From assembly GCF_057098645.1 (NCBI RefSeq), contig NZ_CM169472.1: a stretch of DNA of 64,000 nt; one strand, written 5' to 3'. Shown piece by piece: positions 1,226 to 12,430 of the stretch. The first letter of the stretch is position 1; every line of letters begins with the position of its first letter. A program made the translations under genes and the position numbers. Under the pieces are notes generated by a model that did no database searches, was not told where the DNA came from, and saw nothing but the letters and a program-made list of their open reading frames with translations.

Positions 1226-1257
1226 TGCCGGATGCGGCGTGAATGCCTTATCCGGCC
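1226..1257. repeat. REP (repetitive extragenic palindromic) element
   Basis: gccggatgcggcgtgaatgccttatccggcc: imperfect palindrome of the enterobacterial REP family immediately after alr. Confidence 0.6.
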
Positions 1258-1452
1258 AATAAAATCCTACCAATTCAATAAGTTGATATTCTTTCATGCT
1301 CTTATAAAGGTCGTACCTCTGGCGGATGTACGTTTGTCATGAGTCTCACTCTGTTGCTAATTGCCGTTCGCCCCTGAACATCCACTCGATCTTCGCCTTC
1401 TTCCGGTTTATTGTGTTTTAACCACCTGCCCGTAAACCTGGAGAACCATCGC

Positions 1453-2646
1453 GTGTTTCAAAAAGTTGACGCCTACGCTGGCGACCCGATTCTTACGCTT
1501 ATGGAGCGTTTTAAAGAAGACCCTCGCAGCGACAAAGTGAATTTAAGTATCGGTCTGTACTACAACGAAGACGGAATTATTCCACAATTGAAAGCCGTGG
1601 CTGATGCAGAAGCGCGCCTGAATGCGGTGCCTCATGGCGCTTCGCTTTATTTACCGATGGAAGGGCTTAACAGCTATCGCCATGCCATTGCGCCGCTGCT
1701 GTTTGGTGCCGACCATCCGGTACTGCAACAACAGCGCGTAGCAACCATTCAAACCCTTGGCGGCTCAGGGGCATTGAAAGTGGGTGCGGATTTCCTGAAA
1801 CGCTACTTTCCGGAATCAGGCGTCTGGGTCAGCGATCCTACCTGGGAAAACCACGTAGCAATATTCGCCGGGGCTGGATTCGAAGTAAGTACTTACCCCT
1901 GGTATGACGAAGCGACTAACGGCGTGCGCTTTAATGACCTGTTGGCGATGCTGAAAACATTACCTGCCCGCAGTATTGTGTTGCTGCATCCATGTTGCCA
2001 CAACCCAACGGGTGCCGATCTCACTAATGACCAGTGGGATGCGGTGATTGAAATTCTCAAAGCCCGCGAGCTTATCCCATTCCTTGATATTGCCTATCAA
2101 GGATTTGGTGCCGGTATGGAAGAGGATGCCTACGCCATTCGCGCCATTGCCAGCGCTGGATTACCCGCTCTGGTGAGCAATTCGTTCTCGAAAATTTTCT
2201 CCCTTTACGGCGAGCGCGTCGGCGGACTTTCTGTTCTGTGTGAAGATGCCGAAGCTGCAGGCCACGTACTGGGGCAATTGAAAGCAACAGTTCGCCGCAA
2301 CTACTCCAGCCCGCCGAATTTTGGTGCGCAGGTGGTGGCTGCAGTGCTGAATGACGAGGCATTGAAAGCCAGCTGGCTGGCGGAAGTAGAAGAGATGCGT
2401 ACTCGCATTCTGGCAATGCGTCAGGAACTGGTGAAGGTATTAAGCACAGAGATGCCAGAACGCAATTTCGATTATCTGCTTAATCAGCGCGGCATGTTCA
2501 GTTATACCGGTTTAAGTGCCGCTCAGGTTGACCGACTACGTGAAGAATTTGGTGTCTATCTCATCGCCAGCGGTCGCATGTGTGTCGCCGGGTTAAATAC
2601 GGCAAATGTGCAACGTGTGGCAAAGGCGTTTGCTGCGGTGATGTAA
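1453..2646 (+). CDS. tyrB: Aromatic-amino-acid aminotransferase
   Basis: ORF-track entry 1411-2646 trimmed to the in-frame GTG at 1453 ([14 protein letters not shown]...), giving 397 aa as in E. coli TyrB; [20 protein letters not shown]-lysine region present. Confidence 0.9.
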
Positions 2647-2866
2647 TGCAGTAAAGCAGGCTGGAATTACCCAGCCTGCAGTGAAATTAAACTGTCGTCG
2701 CTTTCACACTTTCTTTATAGATGATTTTTTTGATACCATCGTTCTACGTGAGAGATAATAAACGTTGTTAGTTCTTTTATTGTTAAGCTTATCCTAATTA
2801 TCTGGAATTCCTTACCCTGTTTTTTGTGTGGGGTAATAATTTCTGCATTTCTAATCATTATTAAAC

Positions 2867-3391
2867 TTAATAATAAGTGCCGGGTTTGTTACGATAGTAT
2901 TCTGCTATATCCTTAAGAATATGCTTTGCCTTATTGCCTGTGACTTTCTGAGATTCAATTATAGTATCGTTAAATTCTAAAGTTAAAGAGAACTCATTTT
3001 TTCCGCTTTGTGTAAGTTTAACCTTATATTGATTACCAATATCAAATGAAAAGGTCCTGTAATGAGAATAATCACCTTTAACCTCCTCGGCAAAACAGCA
3101 AAGCGTGCAAATATACATACAATCTTTCTTACCCCTGATTTTGTTAACTAAATCAATAAATGCGTGAAAAACTGTACTTGCAATAGAACTTGATGCTTCT
3201 TCTCCAGGTCTACAAAAATCTTTTGCAATTTTTAACTGTGTTTCTATATATAAAAAGAGATCTTTGGCATAAGAGATATCTTTGTTATTTAGTGTATCTA
3301 GCTCTACAGGTAAAGATGTCGTTTTGTTGCTATTCACATATGATATATTCATGTCATCATCTCCTTCGGGAGTAATAAAATTAGTCACCAT
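2867..3391 (-). CDS. Hypothetical protein, 174 aa, AT-rich, no recognisable domain
   Basis: Uninterrupted 174-codon ORF in a markedly AT-rich tyrB-aphA intergenic block; Asn/Lys/Ile-rich; no motif I can assign. Occupies the position of the short K-12 gene yjbS. Confidence 0.45.
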   Translation of the reverse strand: MVTNFITPEGDDDMNISYVNSNKTTSLPVELDTLNNKDISYAKDLFLYIETQLKIAKDFCRPGEEASSSIASTVFHAFIDLVNKIRGKKDCMYICTLCCFAEEVKGDYSHYRTFSFDIGNQYKVKLTQSGKNEFSLTLEFNDTIIESQKVTGNKAKHILKDIAEYYRNKPGTYY

Positions 3392-3490
3392 TGTAGGGTA
3401 GGGTTCTGGTCAATCAGAAATCATCTTTATAAAAATGTTATTTTATAAACTTCGATTGTTTTTGTAATGCTGTATCATTAAGTTCATTAA

Positions 3491-4483
<993 letters not shown>

Positions 4484-4489
4484 CAGAGC

Positions 4490-4525
4490 GGGAGAGCGTG
4501 ACACTCTCCCGAATGCTGTTTTTTT
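4490..4525 (+). terminator. Rho-independent terminator downstream of aphA
   Basis: GC stem gggagag/ctctccc followed by a run of seven T. Confidence 0.6.
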
Positions 4526-4593
4526 AATCACACCTTTATCCTTTCGCTGTCTTGCTGCAAACTGATTAAGAGAGTTTTATCAAGGAGCAGCAC

Positions 4594-5010
4594 ATGTGGT
4601 ATCAAAAGACGCTCACGCTTAGCGCCAAATCTCGTGGGTTTCATCTGGTAACGGATGAAATTCTGAATCAGCTGGCTGATATGCCGCGCGTTAACATCGG
4701 CTTACTGCATCTGTTGCTGCAACATACCTCCGCCTCTCTGACACTTAATGAGAACTGCGATCCCACCGTACGCCACGACATGGAGCGTTTTTTCCTCCGC
4801 ACCGTTCCCGATAATGGAAACTATGAGCATGACTATGAGGGAGCAGACGATATGCCTTCTCATATCAAATCCTCAATGCTGGGAACATCGCTTGTATTGC
4901 CGGTGCATAAAGGGCGTATTCAGACCGGCACCTGGCAAGGCATTTGGCTGGGGGAACATCGCATCCACGGCGGATCGCGTCGCATCATCGCGACACTACA
5001 AGGGGAGTAA
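4594..5010 (+). CDS. yjbQ: UPF0047 family protein YjbQ
   Basis: 138-aa ORF matching E. coli YjbQ as recalled; conserved position between aphA and uvrA. Confidence 0.85.
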
Positions 5011-5013
5011 AAA

Positions 5014-5370
5014 ATGACCATTTCGGAGTTGCTACAATATTGCATGGCAAAACCAGGCGCAGAACAGAGCGTGCATAACGACTGGAAAGCGACGCAGATC
5101 AAAGTGGAAGATGTACTGTTTGCGATGGTGAAAGAAGTAGAAAATCGCCCAGCTGTTTCGCTGAAAACCAGCCCGGAGCTGGCGGAGCTGCTACGTCAGC
5201 AGCACAGCGATGTGCGTCCAAGCCGCCATCTGAATAAAGCGCACTGGAGCACCGTGTATCTCGACGGTTCGCTGCCAGATTCGCAAATCTATTATCTGGT
5301 GGATGCGTCTTATCAGCAGGCGGTGAATTTACTGCCGGAAGAAAAACGTAAATTGCTGGTGCAACTCTGA
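5014..5370 (+). CDS. yjbR: Uncharacterised protein YjbR
   Basis: 118-aa ORF immediately after yjbQ (4-bp gap), same order as K-12. Confidence 0.85.
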   Translation: MTISELLQYCMAKPGAEQSVHNDWKATQIKVEDVLFAMVKEVENRPAVSLKTSPELAELLRQQHSDVRPSRHLNKAHWSTVYLDGSLPDSQIYYLVDASYQQAVNLLPEEKRKLLVQL

Positions 5371-5378
5371 AAGGAAAA

Positions 5379-5397
5379 GGCCGCTCAGAAAGCGGCC
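5379..5397. terminator. Bidirectional hairpin between convergent yjbR and uvrA
   Basis: ggccgct-cagaa-agcggcc stem-loop flanked by A-run upstream and T-rich downstream, between two convergent genes. Confidence 0.5.
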
Positions 5398-5404
5398 TTA
5401 ACGA

Positions 5405-8227
5405 TTACAGCATCGGCTTAAGGAAGCGTGCCGTGTGTGATGCTTCGCACTCCGCGACGGTTTCTGGTGTACCGGAGACGAGGATCTCGCCGCCGCCACT
5501 GCCGCCTTCCGGACCCAGGTCGACAATCCAGTCAGCAGTTTTGATCACGTCGAGATTGTGCTCAATCACCACGATGGTATTGCCCTGATCGCGCAGTTTA
5601 TGCAGCACGTCGAGCAGTTGCTGAATATCGGCGAAGTGCAGACCGGTGGTCGGCTCGTCGAGAATATACAGCGTCTGCCCGGTGCCGCGTTTTGACAGCT
5701 CACGCGCCAGCTTCACGCGCTGGGCTTCACCACCAGAAAGTGTGGTTGCGGACTGCCCCAGGCGAATGTACGTCAGACCAACGTCCATCAACGTTTGCAG
5801 CTTACGCGCCAGAGCTGGCACCGCATCAAAGAACTCACGCGCCTCTTCGATGGTCATATCCAGCACTTCGTGGATGGTTTTGCCTTTGTACTTAATTTCC
5901 AGCGTTTCACGGTTATAGCGTTTACCTTTACACTGGTCGCACGGTACGTAAATGTCCGGCAGGAAGTGCATCTCCACTTTGATCACGCCGTCGCCCTGAC
6001 AGGCTTCGCAGCGTCCGCCACGGACGTTAAAGCTGAAACGTCCCGGCGTATAGCCGCGCGCACGGGATTCCGGTACGCCCGCAAACAGTTCGCGCACAGG
6101 AGTAAACACGCCGGTATAGGTCGCCGGGTTAGAACGCGGAGTACGACCAATTGGGCTTTGGTCGATATCGATCACTTTATCGAAATGCTCCAGTCCCTGA
6201 ATATCGCGATACGGTGCCGGTTCGGCGATGGTCGCACCATTCAACTGGCGTTGGGCAATCGGGAACAGTGTGTCGTTAATCAGTGTCGATTTACCGGAAC
6301 CTGAAACCCCTGTGATGCAGGTAAACAGACCAACTGGCAGCGTTAGCGTCACGTCTTTCAGGTTATTACCGCGTGCACCAGTCAGCTTCAGCACTTTTTC
6401 CGGATTCGCCGGAACGCGTTTCTTCGGCACTTCAATCTTGCGTTTACCGCTCATGTACTGCCCGGTCAACGACTCCGGCACCGCCATAATCGCTTCCAGC
6501 GGACCTTCCGCGACCACTTCACCGCCATGTACACCTGCACCAGGACCGATATCGATCACATGATCAGCGGCGCGAATCGCGTCTTCGTCGTGCTCCACCA
6601 CAATCACGGTATTACCGAGATCGCGCAGATGGATAAGTGTACCCAACAGGCGCTCGTTATCGCGCTGGTGCAGGCCGATAGACGGCTCGTCCAGTACATA
6701 CATAACACCAACCAGGCCCGCACCAATCTGGCTCGCCAGACGGATACGCTGGGCTTCACCGCCAGAAAGCGTTTCTGCCGAGCGGGAAAGTGTCAGGTAA
6801 TTCAGGCCGACGTTAACGAGGAATTTCAAACGATCGCCGATCTCTTTAAGAATTTTTTCCGCAATCTTCGCCCGCTGACCTGCGAGTTTGAGATTGTTGA
6901 AGAATTCCATCGCATGACCAATGCTCATGTCGGAGATGGCGGGCAGCGGCGTATTCTCGACATACACGTGGCGCGCTTCCCGACGCAGACGCGTCCCTTC
7001 GCAGCTGGCACACGGACGATTACTGATAAACTTGGCTAATTCTTCGCGTACCGCGCTGGATTCCGTCTCTTTATAACGGCGCTCCATATTGTGCAGCACG
7101 CCTTCGAACGGATGACGACGAATGGAGGTATCGCCACGATCGTTCATGTATTTGAATTCAATGTTTTCTTTGCCAGAACCGTACAACACCACTTTATGCA
7201 CGTTCGCGCTCAGGCTGCCCCACGGCGCTTCGACGTCGAACTTATAGTGATCTGCCAGCGATTTCAGCATCTGAAAATAATAGAAGTTGCGGCGATCCCA
7301 GCCACGGATCGCACCACCTGCCAGCGACAGTTCCGGATTCTGGATCACGCGGTCAGGATCGAAATATTGCTGTACGCCAAGGCCGTCGCAGGTCGGGCAG
7401 GCCCCCGCCGGGTTGTTAAACGAAAACAGTCGCGGCTCCAGCTCGCGCATACTGTAGCCGCAAATTGGGCAGGCGAAGTTGGCGGAAAACAGCAGCTCTT
7501 CCGCTTTCGGGTCGTCCATATCCGCCACTACTGCGGTACCACCGGAAAGCTCCAGCGCGGTTTCAAACGACTCGGCCAGACGTTGGGTAAGATCGTCACG
7601 CACCTTGAAGCGATCAACCACCACTTCAATAGTGTGTTTCTTTTGCAGTTCCAGTTTCGGCGGATCGGAAAGATCGCAGACTTCGCCATCAATACGAGCA
7701 CGGATGTAACCCTGGCTTGCCAGGTTCTCCAGCGTTTTGGTGTGTTCGCCTTTGCGCTCTTTAATGATTGGCGCGAGCAGCATCAGACGCTTGCCTTCCG
7801 GCTGCGACAGCACGTTATCCACCATCTGGCTGACGGTTTGCGCCGCCAGCGGGACGTCGTGGTCCGGACAGCGCGGTTCGCCGACGCGGGCGAACAACAA
7901 ACGCAAATAGTCGTGGATTTCGGTGATTGTCCCCACCGTAGAACGCGGGTTATGAGACGTCGATTTCTGCTCAATTGAGATGGCAGGAGAAAGCCCCTCA
8001 ATATGATCGACGTCCGGCTTTTCCATCAGTGACAGAAACTGCCGCGCGTAGGCGGAAAGGGATTCAACGTAACGGCGCTGCCCTTCGGCATATAAGGTGT
8101 CGAAAGCGAGCGAGGATTTGCCAGAACCCGAAAGCCCGGTCACGACAATGAGCTTGTCGCGGGGGATAACGAGGTTGATGTTTTTGAGATTATGGGTGCG
8201 GGCGCCCCGAACTTCGATCTTATCCAT
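5405..8227 (-). CDS. uvrA: Excinuclease ABC subunit A
   Basis: 940-aa ORF with two ABC ATPase modules ([10 protein letters not shown] and [10 protein letters not shown] Walker A, two LSGGE signatures) and zinc-finger cysteine clusters. Confidence 0.97.
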
Positions 8228-8312
8228 TCACCTTTCCCGGATTAAACGCTTTTTTGCCCGGTGGCATGGTGCTACCGGCGATCACAAACGGTTAATTATG
8301 ACACAAATTGAC

Positions 8313-8328
8313 CTGAATGAATATACAG
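8313..8328. promoter_or_regulatory. LexA (SOS) box in the divergent uvrA-ssb control region
   Basis: CTGAATGAATATACAG on the plus strand (CTGTATATTCATTCAG on the minus strand), fitting the CTGT-N8-ACAG SOS consensus, located between uvrA and ssb. Confidence 0.8.
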
Positions 8329-8481
8329 TATTGGAATGCATTACCCGGAGTGTTGTGTAACAATGTCTGGCCAGGTTTGTTTCCCGGAACCGAGGTCACA
8401 ACATAGTAAAAGCGCTATTGGTAATGGTACAATCGCGCGTTTACACTTATTCAGAACGATTTTTTTTCAGGAGACACGAAC

Positions 8482-9018
8482 ATGGCCAGCAGAGGCGTAA
8501 ACAAGGTTATTCTCGTTGGTAATCTGGGTCAGGACCCGGAAGTACGCTACATGCCAAATGGTGGCGCTGTTGCCAACATTACGCTGGCTACTTCCGAATC
8601 CTGGCGTGATAAAGCGACCGGCGAGATGAAAGAGCAGACTGAATGGCACCGCGTTGTGCTGTTCGGCAAACTGGCAGAAGTAGCCAGCGAATATCTGCGT
8701 AAAGGTTCTCAGGTTTATATCGAAGGTCAGCTGCGTACCCGTAAATGGACCGATCAATCCGGTCAGGATCGCTACACCACAGAAGTCGTGGTGAACGTTG
8801 GCGGTACCATGCAGATGCTGGGTGGTCGTCAGGGTGGTGGTGCTCCTGCAGGTGGCAATATCGGTGGTGGTCAGCCGCAGGGCGGTTGGGGTCAGCCTCA
8901 GCAGCCGCAGGGTGGCAATCAGTTCAGCGGCGGCGCGCAGTCTCGCCCGCAGCAGTCCGCTCCGGCAGCGCCGTCTAACGAGCCGCCGATGGACTTTGAT
9001 GACGATATTCCGTTCTGA
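8482..9018 (+). CDS. ssb: Single-stranded DNA-binding protein
   Basis: 178-aa [47 protein letters not shown]..., Gly/Gln-rich linker and acidic C-terminal tail DFDDDIPF. Confidence 0.97.
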
Positions 9019-9086
9019 TTTGTCATTAAAACAATAGGTTATATTGTTTTAAGGTGGATGATTAAAGCATCTGCCAGCCATAAAAA

Positions 9087-9111
9087 AGAAGCCTCCGTTA
9101 TGGAGGCTTCT
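9087..9111. terminator. Hairpin terminator between convergent ssb and yjcB
   Basis: agaagcctcc-gttat-ggaggcttct stem-loop; A-run on the upstream side gives a U-tract for the minus-strand gene. Confidence 0.5.
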
Positions 9112-9116
9112 ACGTA

Positions 9117-9398
9117 TCAGGTCAAAATCATTGGCCATTGTGGCGGTGTCTGATTCATCTCTTCTATCATCACCGACTCGATGTTGTGCCAGATGGCGGT
9201 GATGTCCGCCATTGTGATGCCAAGCAACCCCATTGCGAACCAGCAGGCGGAAACCACGCCCAGACCGCTGCTGATCACTGCAAGCCCGACATAATCAGAC
9301 CGACGAAAACGGATGTTGAGTGTGCTGGCCAGAAACATCATTACGGCACTAAGAAGTTGCCAGCGAAGAAGAACCACGCCAGTGGTGAGGGTAGCCAT
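9117..9398 (-). CDS. yjcB: Small inner-membrane protein YjcB
   Basis: ORF-track entry 9117-9497 trimmed to the internal ATG (MATLTTGVVLLRW...), 93 aa, two hydrophobic segments. Confidence 0.7.
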   Translation of the reverse strand: MATLTTGVVLLRWQLLSAVMMFLASTLNIRFRRSDYVGLAVISSGLGVVSACWFAMGLLGITMADITAIWHNIESVMIEEMNQTPPQWPMILT

Positions 9399-9824
9399 CA
9401 AACAATTCCTCTGAAAAGAGCCGATGCCCTGGACAGCGCGGCGTTGTTCACGGGAGGCGTGGTACACTCTGGCTATCGCGGGGCTTGCAGAACACAAAAA
9501 TGAAACACTCTGTTTGTTTCATTAATTTTGTGAACTATATCACAATTGATTGTTTGTTAGCCAGATTAGGTCGTGACTTTTATTGCTGTACAGATTATGT
9601 GGTTTTTCTGTGGCATTAAGGGCATATCTTCCCGCCGCCCTGCATTCCTGAAGAAAATTAATTTGAATATCAATGAATTATTTTCATCCAGGTGACGATT
9701 AAAAAGGTATCAATTTCAAATCAGGCAAAAGTGCTATTTATACCGTAAGATTTATCTAAAGACGTCGGTAGCCAGGGTTTCACCTTGCAATGGCCGGGTA
9801 TAAACAGGCAGGAAATTGATAGCA

Positions 9825-11411
9825 ATGAGTCATCGTGCACGACACCAATTACTGGCGTTGCCGGGCATTATCTTTTTAGTTCTCTTTCCCATCATTCTTT
9901 CGCTATGGATTGCCTTCCTTTGGGCAAAATCAGAAGTGAATAATCAGCTCCGAACCTTTGCTCAACTGGCACTGGATCAATCCGAGCTGGTCATTCACCA
10001 GGCAGATTTAGTGAGCGATGCAGCAGAACGCTATCAGGGGCAAGTTTGCTCTCCAGCCCATCAAAAGCGAATGTTAAATATTATTCGTGGCTATCTTTAT
10101 ATTAATGAATTGATCTATGCCCGTGATAACCATTTTTTATGCTCATCACTGATAGCGCCTGTAAACGGCTATACGATTGCACCGGCCGATTATAAGCGTG
10201 AACCTAACGTTTCTATCTATTATTTCCGCGATACGCCTTTTTTCTCTGGCTATAAAATGACCTATATGCAGCGGGGAAATTATGTGGCGGTTATCAACCC
10301 TCTCTTCTGGAGTGAAGTGATGTCTGATGACCCGACATTGCAATGGGGTGTGTATGATACGGTGACGAAAACCTTTTTCTCGTTAAGCAACGAGGCCTCG
10401 GCAGCAACGTTTTCTCCGCTGATTCATTTGAAGGATTTAACCGTACAAAGAAATGGCTATTTATATGCGACAGTTTATTCGACAAAACGCCCAATTGCAG
10501 CCATTGTTGCGACTTCATATCAACGTCTTATAGCCCATTTTTATAATCATCTTATTTTTGCGTTACCCGCCGGTATTTTGGGGAGTCTTGTTCTGCTATT
10601 ACTCTGGCTACGTATTCGACAAAACTATTTGTCTCCCAAACGCAAATTGCAACGCGCCCTAGAAAAACATCAACTTTGTCTTTATTACCAGCCAATAATC
10701 GATATCAAAACAGAAAAATGTATCGGCGCTGAAGCGTTGTTACGTTGGCCTGGTGAGCAGGGGCAAGTAATGAATCCGGCAGAGTTTATTCCGCTGGCAG
10801 AAAAGGAGGGGATGATAGAACAGGTAACTGATTATGTTATTGATAATGTCTTCCGCGATCTGGGCGCGTACCTTGCAACACATGCTGATCGCTATGTTTC
10901 TATTAATCTGTCGGCCTCCGATTTTCATACGTCACGGTTGATAGCGCGAATCAATCAGAAAACAGAGCAATACGCGGTGCGTCCGCAGCAAATTAAATTT
11001 GAAGTGACTGAGCATGCATTTCTTGATGTCAACAAAATGACGCCGATTATTCTGGCTTTCCGCCAGGCCGGTTACGAAGTGGCAATTGATGATTTTGGTA
11101 TTGGCTACTCTAACTTGCATAACCTTAAATCATTGAATGTCGATATTTTGAAAATCGACAAATCGTTTGTTGAGACGCTGACCACCCATAAAACCAGTCA
11201 TTTGATTGCGGAACATATCATCGAGCTGGCGCACAGCCTGGGGTTAAAAACAATCGCTGAAGGCGTCGAAACGGAGGAGCAGGTTAACTGGCTGCGCAAA
11301 CGCGGCGTGCGCTATTGCCAGGGATGGTTCTTTGCGAAGGCGATGCCGCCGCAGGTGTTTATGCAATGGATGGAGCAATTACCCGCGCGGGAGTTAACGC
11401 GCGGGCAATAA
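9825..11411 (+). CDS. pdeC: Cyclic-di-GMP phosphodiesterase (CSS-motif sensor plus EAL domain)
   Basis: 528 aa from MSHRARHQ...; N-terminal TM, periplasmic domain with conserved cysteines, second TM, C-terminal EAL domain ([30 protein letters not shown]). Confidence 0.85.
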
Positions 11412-11413
11412 AA

Positions 11414-11737
11414 CTACAGGCGGTGGCGATAATCGCTGGGAGTGCGATCAAACTGCCGACGGAAAACGCGGGAGAAGGTCTGCTGCGAGACATAACCCAG
11501 GTCCATTGCGATATCAAAAATCGGACGCTCGGTGGTGCGCAACTCAACGGCGGCCAGTAACAGGCGGCGTTGGCGAATGTAATCGCCAAGCGTCTGATGC
11601 GTCACCGTGCGGAACATCCGTTGCAAGTACCACTTTGAATAGCCTGATTTTTTTGCGACAACATCAATGTTAAGCGGCTGGTCAATATGCTCGTCAATCC
11701 ATGCGATAAGATCCTGAATAATTTTCTGATGGGACAT
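11414..11737 (-). CDS. soxS: Superoxide-response AraC-family transcriptional activator
   Basis: 107-aa ORF MSHQKIIQDLIAWIDEHIDQPLNIDVVAKKSGYSKWYLQRMFR... matching SoxS. Confidence 0.95.
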   Translation of the reverse strand: MSHQKIIQDLIAWIDEHIDQPLNIDVVAKKSGYSKWYLQRMFRTVTHQTLGDYIRQRRLLLAAVELRTTERPIFDIAMDLGYVSQQTFSRVFRRQFDRTPSDYRHRL

Positions 11738-11793
11738 AAATCTGCCTCTTTTCAGTGTTCAGTTCGTTAATTCATCTGTTGGGGAGTATAATT

Positions 11794-11811
11794 CCTCAAG
11801 TTAACTTGAGG
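11794..11811. promoter_or_regulatory. SoxR operator palindrome within the soxS promoter
   Basis: Perfect 18-bp palindrome CCTCAAGTTAACTTGAGG in the 85-bp divergent soxS-soxR intergenic region. Confidence 0.8.
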
Positions 11812-11822
11812 TAAAGCGATTT

Positions 11823-12287
11823 ATGGAAAAGAAATTACCCCGCATTAAAGCGCTGCTAACCCCCGGCGAAGTGGCGAAACGCAGCGGTGTGGCGGTATCG
11901 GCGCTGCATTTCTATGAAAGCAAAGGGTTGATTACCAGTATCCGTAACAGCGGCAATCAGCGGCGATATAAACGTGATGTGTTGCGATATGTCGCAATTA
12001 TCAAAATTGCTCAGCGTATTGGCATTCCGCTGGCGACCATTGGTGAAGCGTTTGGCGTGTTGCCCGAAGGGCATACATTAAGCGCCAAAGAGTGGAAGCA
12101 GCTTTCTTCGCAATGGCGAGAAGAATTAGATCGGCGCATTCATACCTTAGTGGCGCTGCGTGACGAACTGGACGGATGTATTGGTTGTGGCTGCCTTTCG
12201 CGCAGTGATTGCCCGTTGCGTAACCCGGGCGACCGCTTAGGAGAAGAAGGTACCGGCGCACGCTTGCTGGAAGATGAACAAAACTAA
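11823..12287 (+). CDS. soxR: Redox-sensing MerR-family regulator with [2Fe-2S] cluster
   Basis: 154-aa ORF; MerR HTH ([26 protein letters not shown]) and C-terminal cysteine cluster [12 protein letters not shown]. Confidence 0.95.
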
Positions 12288-12316
12288 AGCGCCACAAGGG
12301 CGCTTTAGTTTGTTTT
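12286..12316. terminator. Rho-independent (bidirectional) terminator after soxR
   Basis: aaagcgcc-acaa-gggcgcttt stem-loop followed by agtttgtttt; A-rich on the other flank. Confidence 0.65.
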
Positions 12317-12430
12317 CCGGTCTTTGTCTTTCTCTCTATCCCGCTGGTACACAGGAGGGTTTCCCCCGACGTCAACACACCTCATTCGAGCACGTGGTGG
12401 AGGTTCCGGTTGGTGTTGATGCTTTAATTG
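12290..12430 (-). ncRNA. ryjA: Candidate small RNA in the soxR-ghxP spacer (position of K-12 ryjA); boundaries approximate
   Basis: K-12 carries sRNA RyjA in this intergenic region, antisense to soxR direction; the shared hairpin at 12286-12316 could serve as its terminator. Not verified by alignment. Confidence 0.25.

What the first reader, a model, noticed from the sequence alone, without database searches (positions are those of the whole stretch)
2867..3391. Uncharacterised 174-codon ORF in a sharply AT-rich block between tyrB and aphA
The tyrB-aphA spacer (about 1.1 kb) is far more AT-rich than its neighbours and holds a clean 174-aa minus-strand ORF with no recognisable domain, signal peptide or TM segment. 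K-12 annotates only a short gene (yjbS) here, so this may be the intact form of a gene degraded or mis-annotated in K-12, or a small horizontally acquired cassette.
Basis: partly seen in the sequence, partly recalled or inferred. Interest (0 to 1): 0.5.

Follow-up and report, generated by a model that had tools for sequence, protein, structure and literature searches.

The report
Intact form of E. coli yjbS
The open reading frame is real: it is the full-length version of an E. coli-only gene of unknown function, of which strain K-12 keeps only a frameshifted stump called yjbS, and it sits in a small foreign-looking AT-rich DNA insert that many strains have broken or replaced, so it is an annotation correction rather than a new biological system.

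Summary
Window 2867..3391 (-) is a clean 174-codon ORF in a 32% GC block between tyrB and aphA, far longer than chance allows (0 of 2000 shuffles). The likely start is Met14 (ATG 3352-3350, AAGGAG 8 nt upstream), giving 161 aa.

It is the intact form of K-12 yjbS. K-12 has two 1-nt deletions, and its 67-aa YjbS is the N-terminal stump. RefSeq labels intact copies "frameshifted" or splits them.

The ORF lies in a ~983-bp islet (2648-3630). Salmonella-like and one other enterobacterial (Citrobacter-like, unverified) locus lack it and have 186-193 bp spacers. About 20% of complete E. coli genomes lack the ORF, and the one such genome read in full carries the 13.7-kb kgu island at the same junction.

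About 80% of complete E. coli genomes carry the ORF. Roughly half of those copies are intact. The rest are broken by at least five separate kinds of lesion.

Selection on the protein is weak but detectable (dN/dS 0.37). No homologue below 74% identity exists among 1.84 billion representative proteins. No Pfam, NCBIfam, PHROG or PADLOC family matches, and no convincing structural match was found.

Best reading: a horizontally acquired, dispensable, Escherichia-restricted orphan gene, H-NS-bound in K-12 according to published data. It encodes a soluble alpha+beta protein whose function remains unknown.

The parts
2648..3630 (.). AT-rich islet (about 983 bp, GC 0.32) inserted between the tyrB stop codon and the conserved aphA promoter region
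   Evidence: Similarity to a kgu-island strain (L021) stops at 2647 on the tyrB side and resumes at 3631 on the aphA side. Salmonella-like and another enterobacterial locus have only 186-193 bp here, homologous to 3631-3769.
2867..3391 (-). Longest ORF, 174 codons plus stop (the finding as reported)
   Evidence: No shuffle of 2000 reached its stop-to-stop length of 180 codons.
2867..3352 (-). Probable true coding sequence, 161 codons from Met14 (MNISYVNS...) plus stop
   Evidence: ATG at 3352-3350 is preceded by AAGGAG. Met14 is invariant while Met1 is not (L005 has ILTNF). Public gene calls of 161 or 167 aa start here, as does K-12 YjbS.
3361..3366 (-). Shine-Dalgarno-like AAGGAG, 8 nt upstream of the Met14 ATG
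   Evidence: Read directly from the sequence.
3260..3277 (-). 18-nt unit (encodes SYAKD[L/F]) that is present once in the window and as a tandem in-frame duplicate in most intact alleles
   Evidence: An 18-nt insertion relative to the window at about 3257-3259 occurs in 12 fetched loci. The O145:H28 islet differs from the window only by this unit and one SNP.
2997..3002 (-). T6 run (A6 on the coding strand, in GGA AAA AAT) that is a recurrent frameshift site
   Evidence: A 1-nt deletion here occurs in K-12-type L002, in L012 and in L015. A 10-nt deletion here occurs in O157 L006. The sequence is shown.
3210..3218 (-). Site of the 1-nt deletion, next to an A5/T5 run, that truncates the K-12 protein to YjbS
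   Evidence: A deletion at 3213 occurs in L002, L012 and L009. The K-12 product diverges after ...KIAKDF.
2656..2679 (.). Perfect 9-bp GC-rich hairpin (GCAGGCTGG-AATTAC-CCAGCCTGC) just after the tyrB stop; possibly a shared terminator for tyrB and the ORF
   Evidence: Read directly. It is conserved in other E. coli. The terminator scan did not call it because it lacks a T run, so the terminator role is inference.
3631..3769 (+). Conserved aphA upstream region, outside the islet; not part of the ORF cassette
   Evidence: It is shared with the kgu-type strain and recognisable in the Salmonella-like and other outgroup spacers. It has the lowest diversity of the spacer, pi 0.015.

Best explanation
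The ORF is the intact, ancestral-length allele of an Escherichia/Shigella-restricted orphan gene. K-12 carries only its frameshifted N-terminal stump, annotated as yjbS. The gene came in with a roughly 1-kb AT-rich islet inserted between the tyrB stop and the aphA promoter. It is probably translated from Met14 into a 161-aa (18.5 kDa) soluble cytoplasmic protein. The predicted protein has a disordered Ser/Thr/Asn-rich N-terminus of about 22 residues (residues 14-35 of the 174-aa ORF) followed by a helix-helix-helix, five-strand meander, helix domain. Shown here: orthology to yjbS, the islet boundaries, absence from the outgroup loci read, the restricted taxonomic range, weak purifying selection, and repeated independent inactivation. 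Taken from the literature on K-12: H-NS binds the region and it behaves as a transcriptionally suppressed 'promoter island'. Inferred: the gene is silent under laboratory conditions, is conditionally useful at most, and is being lost in several lineages. Its biochemical role is not established. My best guess, at low confidence, is a stand-alone protein-binding accessory factor, either inhibitor/immunity-like or a secreted substrate, rather than an enzyme.
For: Of 20 sequences examined (19 fetched loci plus the window), 15 are intact, representing 14 distinct alleles: all eleven 543-nt alleles in that set (a twelfth, O145:H28 L034, was read separately), all three 525-nt alleles, and one 522-nt allele. 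Intact alleles carry only in-frame indels of 18 and 3 nt. dN/dS is 0.365 in the ORF frame, the lowest of the six frames (the others are 0.54-1.27), and variable sites by codon position number 17, 21 and 30. There are 30 synonymous variants against 21.4 expected under random placement (P=0.018), and 1 nonsense variant against 3.7 expected. pN is 0.027, against a diversity of 0.052 in the adjacent non-coding islet DNA. The ORF length is beyond chance. Foreign origin is supported by GC3 of 0.26, by spacers of 186-193 bp in the outgroup loci, and by the kgu island sitting at the identical junction in a genome that lacks the islet. Orphan status is supported by the absence of any hit below 74% identity in 1.84 billion representatives, by Escherichia/Shigella-only names, and by no phage or true plasmid match. 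Literature: in K-12 the tyrB/yjbS segment is an H-NS-bound promoter island associated with foreign DNA (PMC3661553). It is among the 20 most GC-divergent 1-kb segments of K-12 (PMC2575891).
Against: No expression data exist for an intact allele, and promoter-like sites are no more frequent than in shuffles. A dN/dS of 0.37 is high for a maintained gene. The gene is broken or absent in about 59% of complete genomes. Frameshifting indels per base are only modestly rarer inside the ORF than in the flanking islet DNA. The structure models are of low to moderate confidence (pLDDT 55.6 and 70.7) and give no significant fold match. The intact/broken proportions rest on allele lengths in an evenly spaced sample of 60 genomes, with 19 loci read in full, not on all 4350 carriers.
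Confidence: 0.8

Rival explanations
1. Dead relic. The gene was functional in its donor or early in E. coli, now has no function anywhere, and the open frame in about half of strains is simply not yet broken.
For: At least five separate kinds of inactivating lesion were seen: 1-nt deletions at 2996, 3213 and 3312, a 10-nt deletion in O157, and IS insertions. Whole-islet replacement occurs in at least one genome, and about 20% of genomes lack the ORF. dN/dS is relatively high at 0.37. H-NS binds the region in K-12. No homologue exists elsewhere.
Against: The excess of synonymous variants (P=0.018) and the deficit of nonsense variants. The ORF frame has the lowest dN/dS of six frames. Only in-frame indels occur in the 15 intact sequences, while the adjacent 220 bp carries several 1-2-nt indels. 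Synonymous diversity of 0.07 implies the frame has stayed open across deep E. coli divergence in DNA where about 4.6% of random substitutions would create stops.
Confidence: 0.3
2. Orphan immunity or inhibitor protein, left over from a polymorphic toxin-immunity module (CDI, Rhs or colicin-like).
Confidence: 0.07
3. Unrecognised type III secretion substrate (of the LEE or ETT2 system).
Confidence: 0.05
4. Not a gene at all. It is a chance ORF in an AT-rich regulatory spacer, or a de novo ORF born in E. coli.
For: No homologue exists anywhere. No promoter enrichment was found. The region is described as a 'promoter island' rather than as a gene.
Against: A 180-codon open frame in 32% GC DNA was never reached in 2000 shuffles, whose maximum was 148. 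A codon-position bias and a dN/dS minimum fall in this frame. A strong Shine-Dalgarno sequence lies at a conserved Met. The whole islet is absent from the outgroup loci, so there is no non-coding precursor at this locus.
Confidence: 0.03

Closest known systems
YjbS of E. coli K-12 (b4621, 67 aa, uncharacterised)
   Same: Same locus between tyrB and aphA, same strand and same start (MNISY...). Identity is 44 of 47 over YjbS residues 1-47.
   Different: K-12 YjbS is a truncated product. A 1-nt deletion at window 3213 shifts the frame, so its last 20 residues are out of frame, and a second deletion at 2996 breaks the remainder. The window allele encodes 161-174 aa.
H-NS-bound 'promoter islands' and xenogeneic AT-rich orphan-gene islets of E. 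coli (Shavkunov/Ozoline set; PMC3661553)
   Same: The K-12 counterpart of this islet is one of the 78 listed promoter islands. It is flagged as H-NS-bound and associated with foreign DNA. The window shares the composition and the absence from the outgroup loci.
   Different: That work treats the K-12 segment as non-coding or regulatory DNA next to yjbS. Here the 'island' is shown to be the decayed 3' half of a longer gene that is intact in other strains.
kgu (c5032-c5041) genomic island of uropathogenic E. coli (Cai et al. 2013, PMC3694859)
   Same: It occupies exactly the same tyrB/aphA junction.
   Different: It is 13.7 kb with normal GC content and known function: alpha-ketoglutarate utilisation genes plus the KguS/KguR two-component system. 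In the one genome read in full it replaces the yjbS islet rather than sitting beside it. There is no sequence relationship to the ORF.
CdiI-type immunity proteins and T3SS effector N-domains (PipB2, EspG, VirA)
   Different: No sequence similarity and no cognate toxin, chaperone or secretion-system context was found. The structural scores are at noise level on a model of moderate confidence.

Membership tests
YjbS orthologue group (E. coli tyrB-aphA ORF) | Syntenic position between tyrB and aphA on the minus strand | tested here: met
YjbS orthologue group (E. coli tyrB-aphA ORF) | Sequence identity to K-12 YjbS over its in-frame part | tested here: met
   44 of 47 identical, E 9e-30. The nucleotide identity of the ORF to K-12 is 95.4%.
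YjbS orthologue group (E. coli tyrB-aphA ORF) | Same length and C-terminus as the K-12 reference (the feature PGAP's naming model implies) | tested here: not met
   The K-12 C-terminus is a frameshift product. The window protein continues for about 114 more residues. The reference, not the window, is the aberrant form.
Horizontally acquired, H-NS-silenced islet | Atypical base composition relative to the host | tested here: met
   GC is 0.32 against about 0.52, and GC3 is 0.26 against 0.48-0.63.
Horizontally acquired, H-NS-silenced islet | Absence from the syntenic locus of related genera | tested here: met
   Salmonella-like loci L022, L025, L028 and L029 and a further enterobacterial locus L030 have 186-193 bp spacers with no gene. 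E. albertii, E. fergusonii and the cryptic clades could not be examined.
Horizontally acquired, H-NS-silenced islet | H-NS occupancy and transcriptional silencing | not testable with these tools
   The literature reports H-NS binding for the K-12 segment only (PMC3661553). No data exist for an intact allele.
Horizontally acquired, H-NS-silenced islet | Mobility signatures (integrase, flanking direct repeats, tRNA, IS ends) or an identifiable donor | tested here: not met
   No direct repeats were found. The one flanking inverted repeat (I2) overlaps a 16-nt indel absent from most strains. No phage or true plasmid match was found.
Any curated protein family (Pfam, NCBIfam, PHROGs, PADLOC) | Profile HMM match at or near the curated threshold | tested here: not met
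   There are no Pfam, PHROG or PADLOC hits. The only NCBIfam hit is BamG at 15 bits against a cutoff of 250.
Polymorphic-toxin immunity proteins (CdiI-like) | Gene immediately downstream of a toxin C-terminal domain, or a remnant of one | tested here: not met
   The upstream 240 bp holds only a 40-44-codon open piece without a start, without a Pfam hit and without homologues outside E. coli.
Polymorphic-toxin immunity proteins (CdiI-like) | Structural similarity to a solved immunity protein | tested here: inconclusive
Type III secretion effectors | N-terminal secretion-signal composition | tested here: inconclusive
   Residues 2-26 are 44% Ser/Thr/Asn against a 16% background. This is confounded by the AT-rich coding, and no dedicated predictor was available.
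Type III secretion effectors | T3SS-dependent secretion or translocation | not testable with these tools
   This needs a secretion or translocation assay.

The most novel reading that the evidence does not exclude
The 161-aa protein founds a new fold or family with an E. coli-specific role that is switched on only when H-NS silencing is relieved, for example as an unrecognised secreted (T3SS) substrate or a stand-alone inhibitor or immunity factor. Its loss in K-12 and O157 and its replacement by the kgu island in uropathogenic lineages would then reflect niche-specific selection rather than neutral decay.
Probability: 0.1. Interest if true: 0.55.

Novelty: new member of a known kind. Interest (0 to 1): 0.25.

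Why it matters
The main value is to annotation. The K-12 reference protein YjbS is a frameshift stump, yet RefSeq annotation labels intact copies "frameshifted" or splits them into pieces. The sign of the annotation is therefore inverted for roughly 2,000 complete genomes. Studies that list yjbS as a TraDIS "essential" gene, an IS1 target or a recoding problem are looking at a pseudogene inside H-NS-bound DNA. Biologically, the locus is a clean example of one chromosomal junction (tyrB/aphA) that holds alternative cargo in different lineages. It is also an example of a true orphan gene, with no relative among 1.84 billion representative proteins, caught between weak maintenance and decay. No new mechanism or system is revealed.

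Tried and rejected
- **Family searches.** Pfam, NCBIfam, PHROGs and PADLOC scans of the ORF and of the small flanking ORFs gave nothing.
- **Solved structures by sequence.** phmmer against PDB sequences returned only chance hits with E>0.8.
- **Protein homologue searches.** The word-indexed search of 5.8 billion proteins and the exhaustive phmmer of 1.84 billion representatives returned only Escherichia variants, fragments and assembly chimeras.
- **One-genome-per-species scan.** The only hit was E. coli contamination in a Flavobacterium assembly. The scan used two exact peptide patterns, so divergent copies in other Escherichia species could have been missed.
- **Phages and plasmids.** tblastn and blastn found nothing in phages. 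The "plasmid" hits are chromosome pieces.
- **Toxin-remnant idea.** It was rejected after reading the upstream frames and searching the 44-aa piece.
- **Downstream 47-aa ORF (2715..2858).** It was rejected as a gene because strains differ there by 1-2-nt indels and K-12 lacks a start codon.
- **Rfam.** The only match was a sub-threshold STnc150 hit at 16.5 bits against a gathering score of 60.
- **Flanking inverted repeat I2.** It was rejected as a mobile-element end because one arm lies in a strain-specific 16-nt indel.
- **Loci with 90-93% AphA identity.** L023, L024, L026, L031 and L032 turned out to be error-rich E. coli assemblies, not other species.

Full report
**1. What is there**

The first 8.2 kb of the window carries alr, tyrB, a spacer, aphA, yjbQ, yjbR and uvrA in the usual E. 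coli order. tyrB ends at 2646 and aphA starts at 3770. The 1123-nt spacer falls to GC 0.28-0.34, against about 0.45-0.60 in the flanking genes.

The reported ORF is exactly at 2867..3391 on the minus strand: 174 codons from an ATG, and 180 codons stop to stop. In DNA this AT-rich, stop codons are frequent. In 2000 dinucleotide-preserving shuffles of the islet the longest open frame averaged 69 codons (sd 15, maximum 148), and none reached 180. GC3 of the ORF is 0.26, against 0.48-0.63 for six neighbouring genes.

**2. The start codon**

Met1 (3391) has no Shine-Dalgarno sequence and is ATA in one strain. Met14 (ATG 3352-3350) is invariant and has AAGGAG (3366-3361) 8 nt upstream. Most public gene calls (161 or 167 aa), and K-12 YjbS itself, start at MNISY.

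The likely product is therefore 161 aa, 18.5 kDa, with pI about 7.6. It has no hydrophobic segment, since the maximum 19-residue hydropathy is 0.89.

**3. Relation to K-12 yjbS**

The spacer matches 5,422 of 5,426 complete E. coli genomes at least in part, and 4,327 over most of its length. A multiple alignment of the window plus 19 fetched spacers shows that K-12-type genomes carry two 1-nt deletions inside the ORF, at window positions 3213 and 2996.

The annotated 67-aa YjbS equals residues 14-60 of the window protein at 44 of 47 positions. It then runs 20 residues out of frame to a stop. O157:H7 has a 10-nt deletion at 2996. Other strains have a 1-nt deletion at 2996 in a different background, a further one at 3312, or IS1, IS5, IS150 or ISKpn26 insertions. 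That makes at least five separate kinds of lesion; how many independent events they represent was not counted on a tree.

RefSeq annotation calls intact copies "frameshifted" or splits them into pieces. It is the K-12 form, not these copies, that carries the frameshifts.

**4. How common is the intact form?**

The ORF itself is found in 4,350 of 5,426 genomes. An evenly spaced sample of 60 of these gave the allele lengths below.

| Allele length (nt) | Count in sample | State where read in full |
|---|---|---|
| 543 | 28 | intact (11 of 11 in the set; a twelfth, O145:H28) |
| 525 | 2 | intact (3 of 3) |
| 522 | 2 | one intact, one broken |
| 523 (K-12 type) | 21 | broken |
| 515 (O157 type) | 4 | broken |
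| 542 | 2 | broken |
| partial | 1 | broken |

About 31 of 60 carriers, roughly 41% of all complete genomes, therefore keep the full frame. This extrapolates from allele length and from a collection rich in laboratory and outbreak strains.

The window's allele equals that of O145:H28 RM12581 except that it has one copy instead of two of an in-frame 18-nt unit (SYAKDF) and differs at one SNP. The exact 161-aa product is already in public databases as "hypothetical protein [Escherichia coli]". Related 174-aa forms are recorded from Shigella flexneri.

**5. Is it under selection?**

- Among the 14 distinct intact alleles, pS is 0.071 and pN is 0.027, giving dN/dS of 0.365. This is the lowest of all six reading frames; the others range from 0.54 to 1.27.
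- Variable sites by codon position number 17, 21 and 30.
- I re-placed the 81 observed variants at random on sites with the same base. That procedure expects 21.4 synonymous, 55.8 nonsynonymous and 3.7 nonsense variants. The observed counts were 30, 50 and 1, with P=0.018 for the synonymous excess.
- Nonsynonymous diversity (0.027) is below that of the adjacent non-coding islet DNA (0.052).
- Intact alleles carry only in-frame indels. The flanking islet DNA carries several 1-2-nt indels, which also dispose of the 47-codon ORF at 2715..2858.

Constraint is real but weak, and loss is frequent.

**6. The islet and its origin**

Similarity between the window and a strain lacking the ORF (PMV-1) stops at the tyrB stop (2647) and resumes at 3631. 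Between those points PMV-1 carries 13.7 kb: paralogues of sucA, sucB, lpd, sucC and sucD, a DASS transporter, an Ldh-family oxidoreductase, a sigma-54 regulator and a sensor kinase. This is the kgu island that Cai et al. 2013 placed "between tyrB and aphA" (PMC3694859). In PMV-1 it replaces the AT-rich islet rather than adding to it.

Salmonella-like loci and a further enterobacterial locus have only 186-193 bp between tyrB and aphA. That short spacer is homologous to window 3631-3769. The 983-bp islet (2648-3630) is therefore an insertion relative to the outgroups.

No integrase, tRNA, direct repeats or donor sequence were found. For K-12, published work lists the tyrB/yjbS segment as an H-NS-bound "promoter island" associated with foreign DNA (PMC3661553). 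Another paper ranks it among the 20 most GC-divergent 1-kb segments of the genome (PMC2575891). yjbS also appears as a TraDIS-only "essential" gene (PMC5821084) and as an IS1 target (PMC4999529). These mentions all concern a pseudogene inside AT-rich, H-NS-bound DNA; neither paper as read here links its result to that.

**7. What the protein might be**

No family matches. No protein below 74% identity exists among 1.84 billion cluster representatives. All named relatives are Escherichia or Shigella.

AlphaFold2 on the full length was poor, with pLDDT 55.6 and residues 1-37 below pLDDT 50, predicted disordered. Residues 37-174 folded with pLDDT 70.7 and pTM 0.69 into three helices, a five-strand antiparallel meander and a C-terminal helix.

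I tested the immunity idea by looking for a toxin remnant upstream and found none. The N-terminus after Met14 is unusually rich in Ser, Thr and Asn (44% against 16%), as in secretion signals, but AT-rich coding produces the same bias. Function therefore remains unknown. A small protein-binding accessory factor is my low-confidence guess.

**8. Verdict**

This is the intact allele of the gene that K-12 retains as the yjbS stump. It is carried on a small, horizontally acquired, H-NS-type islet, restricted to Escherichia and Shigella, weakly constrained and repeatedly lost.

It is an ordinary kind of object, an orphan accessory gene. It carries a useful annotation correction and shows an interesting two-state junction (yjbS islet or kgu island). 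I score interest at 0.25. The chance that it hides a genuinely new function or fold with a lineage-specific role is about 0.1.

Noticed in passing
window 2867-3391; loci L001, L003-L005, L010, L013, L014, L016-L020, L034: RefSeq/PGAP marks intact 161-180-aa alleles as 'frameshifted' pseudogenes, or splits them into an 83-aa protein plus a pseudogene. The K-12 form, not these copies, is the frameshifted one, so the annotation is inverted for a large share of E. coli genomes.
   Followed up: yes
L021 (E. coli PMV-1) 1246-14957; window junctions 2647 and 3631: The 13.7-kb kgu (alpha-ketoglutarate utilisation, KguS/KguR) island occupies exactly the same junction and replaces the AT-rich islet rather than sitting next to it. 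About 20% of complete genomes lack the ORF.
   Followed up: partly
L009 (NZ_JAUFQN010000013.1, 'Flavobacterium paronense CECT 8460'): This 9.5-kb contig is 99.6% identical to K-12-like E. coli DNA (tyrB to uvrA), so it is contamination in a Flavobacterium assembly. A 17-kb Klebsiella oxytoca 'plasmid' (NZ_CP069917.1) also carries a K-12-like copy of the islet, annotated yjbS (94.3% identical to the window); what that record is was not examined.
   Followed up: partly
protein P0057 (metagenome, 106 aa): This is a chimeric gene call: the first 39 residues of this ORF are fused to a haemolysin E-like (PF06109) tail. It is most likely an assembly artefact.
   Followed up: no
L022, L025, L028, L029 (Salmonella-like), about 4600-5400 in L028: Two small minus-strand genes (112 and 147-151 aa, no Pfam family) lie between yjbR and uvrA in the Salmonella-like loci. 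They are absent from E. coli, which marks a second variable junction a few kb away.
   Followed up: no
window 2647-3769 in other strains (hits H2, H12, H41-H45; L015): IS1, IS5, ISKpn26 and IS150 insertions recur in or beside the islet. An evolution experiment also found IS1 in yjbS twice (PMC4999529).
   Followed up: partly
window 3426-3441: A 16-nt segment flanked by TTTATAAA repeats is present in the window, its near-identical relative L001, L005 and the O145:H28 islet, but is deleted in the other fetched strains. Where it is deleted, a 44-codon upstream open piece falls in frame with the ORF, separated by a single TGA.
   Followed up: partly
window 2649-2877 (-): A weak, sub-threshold Rfam match to the Salmonella Hfq-binding sRNA STnc150 (16.5 bits against a gathering score of 60, E 0.83). 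It is probably chance in AT-rich DNA.
   Followed up: no
window 5405-8227 (uvrA): uvrA is 100% identical to E. coli O145:H28 strains, and only 26 genomes are at or above 99% identity. The window therefore comes from an O145:H28-like lineage.
   Followed up: partly
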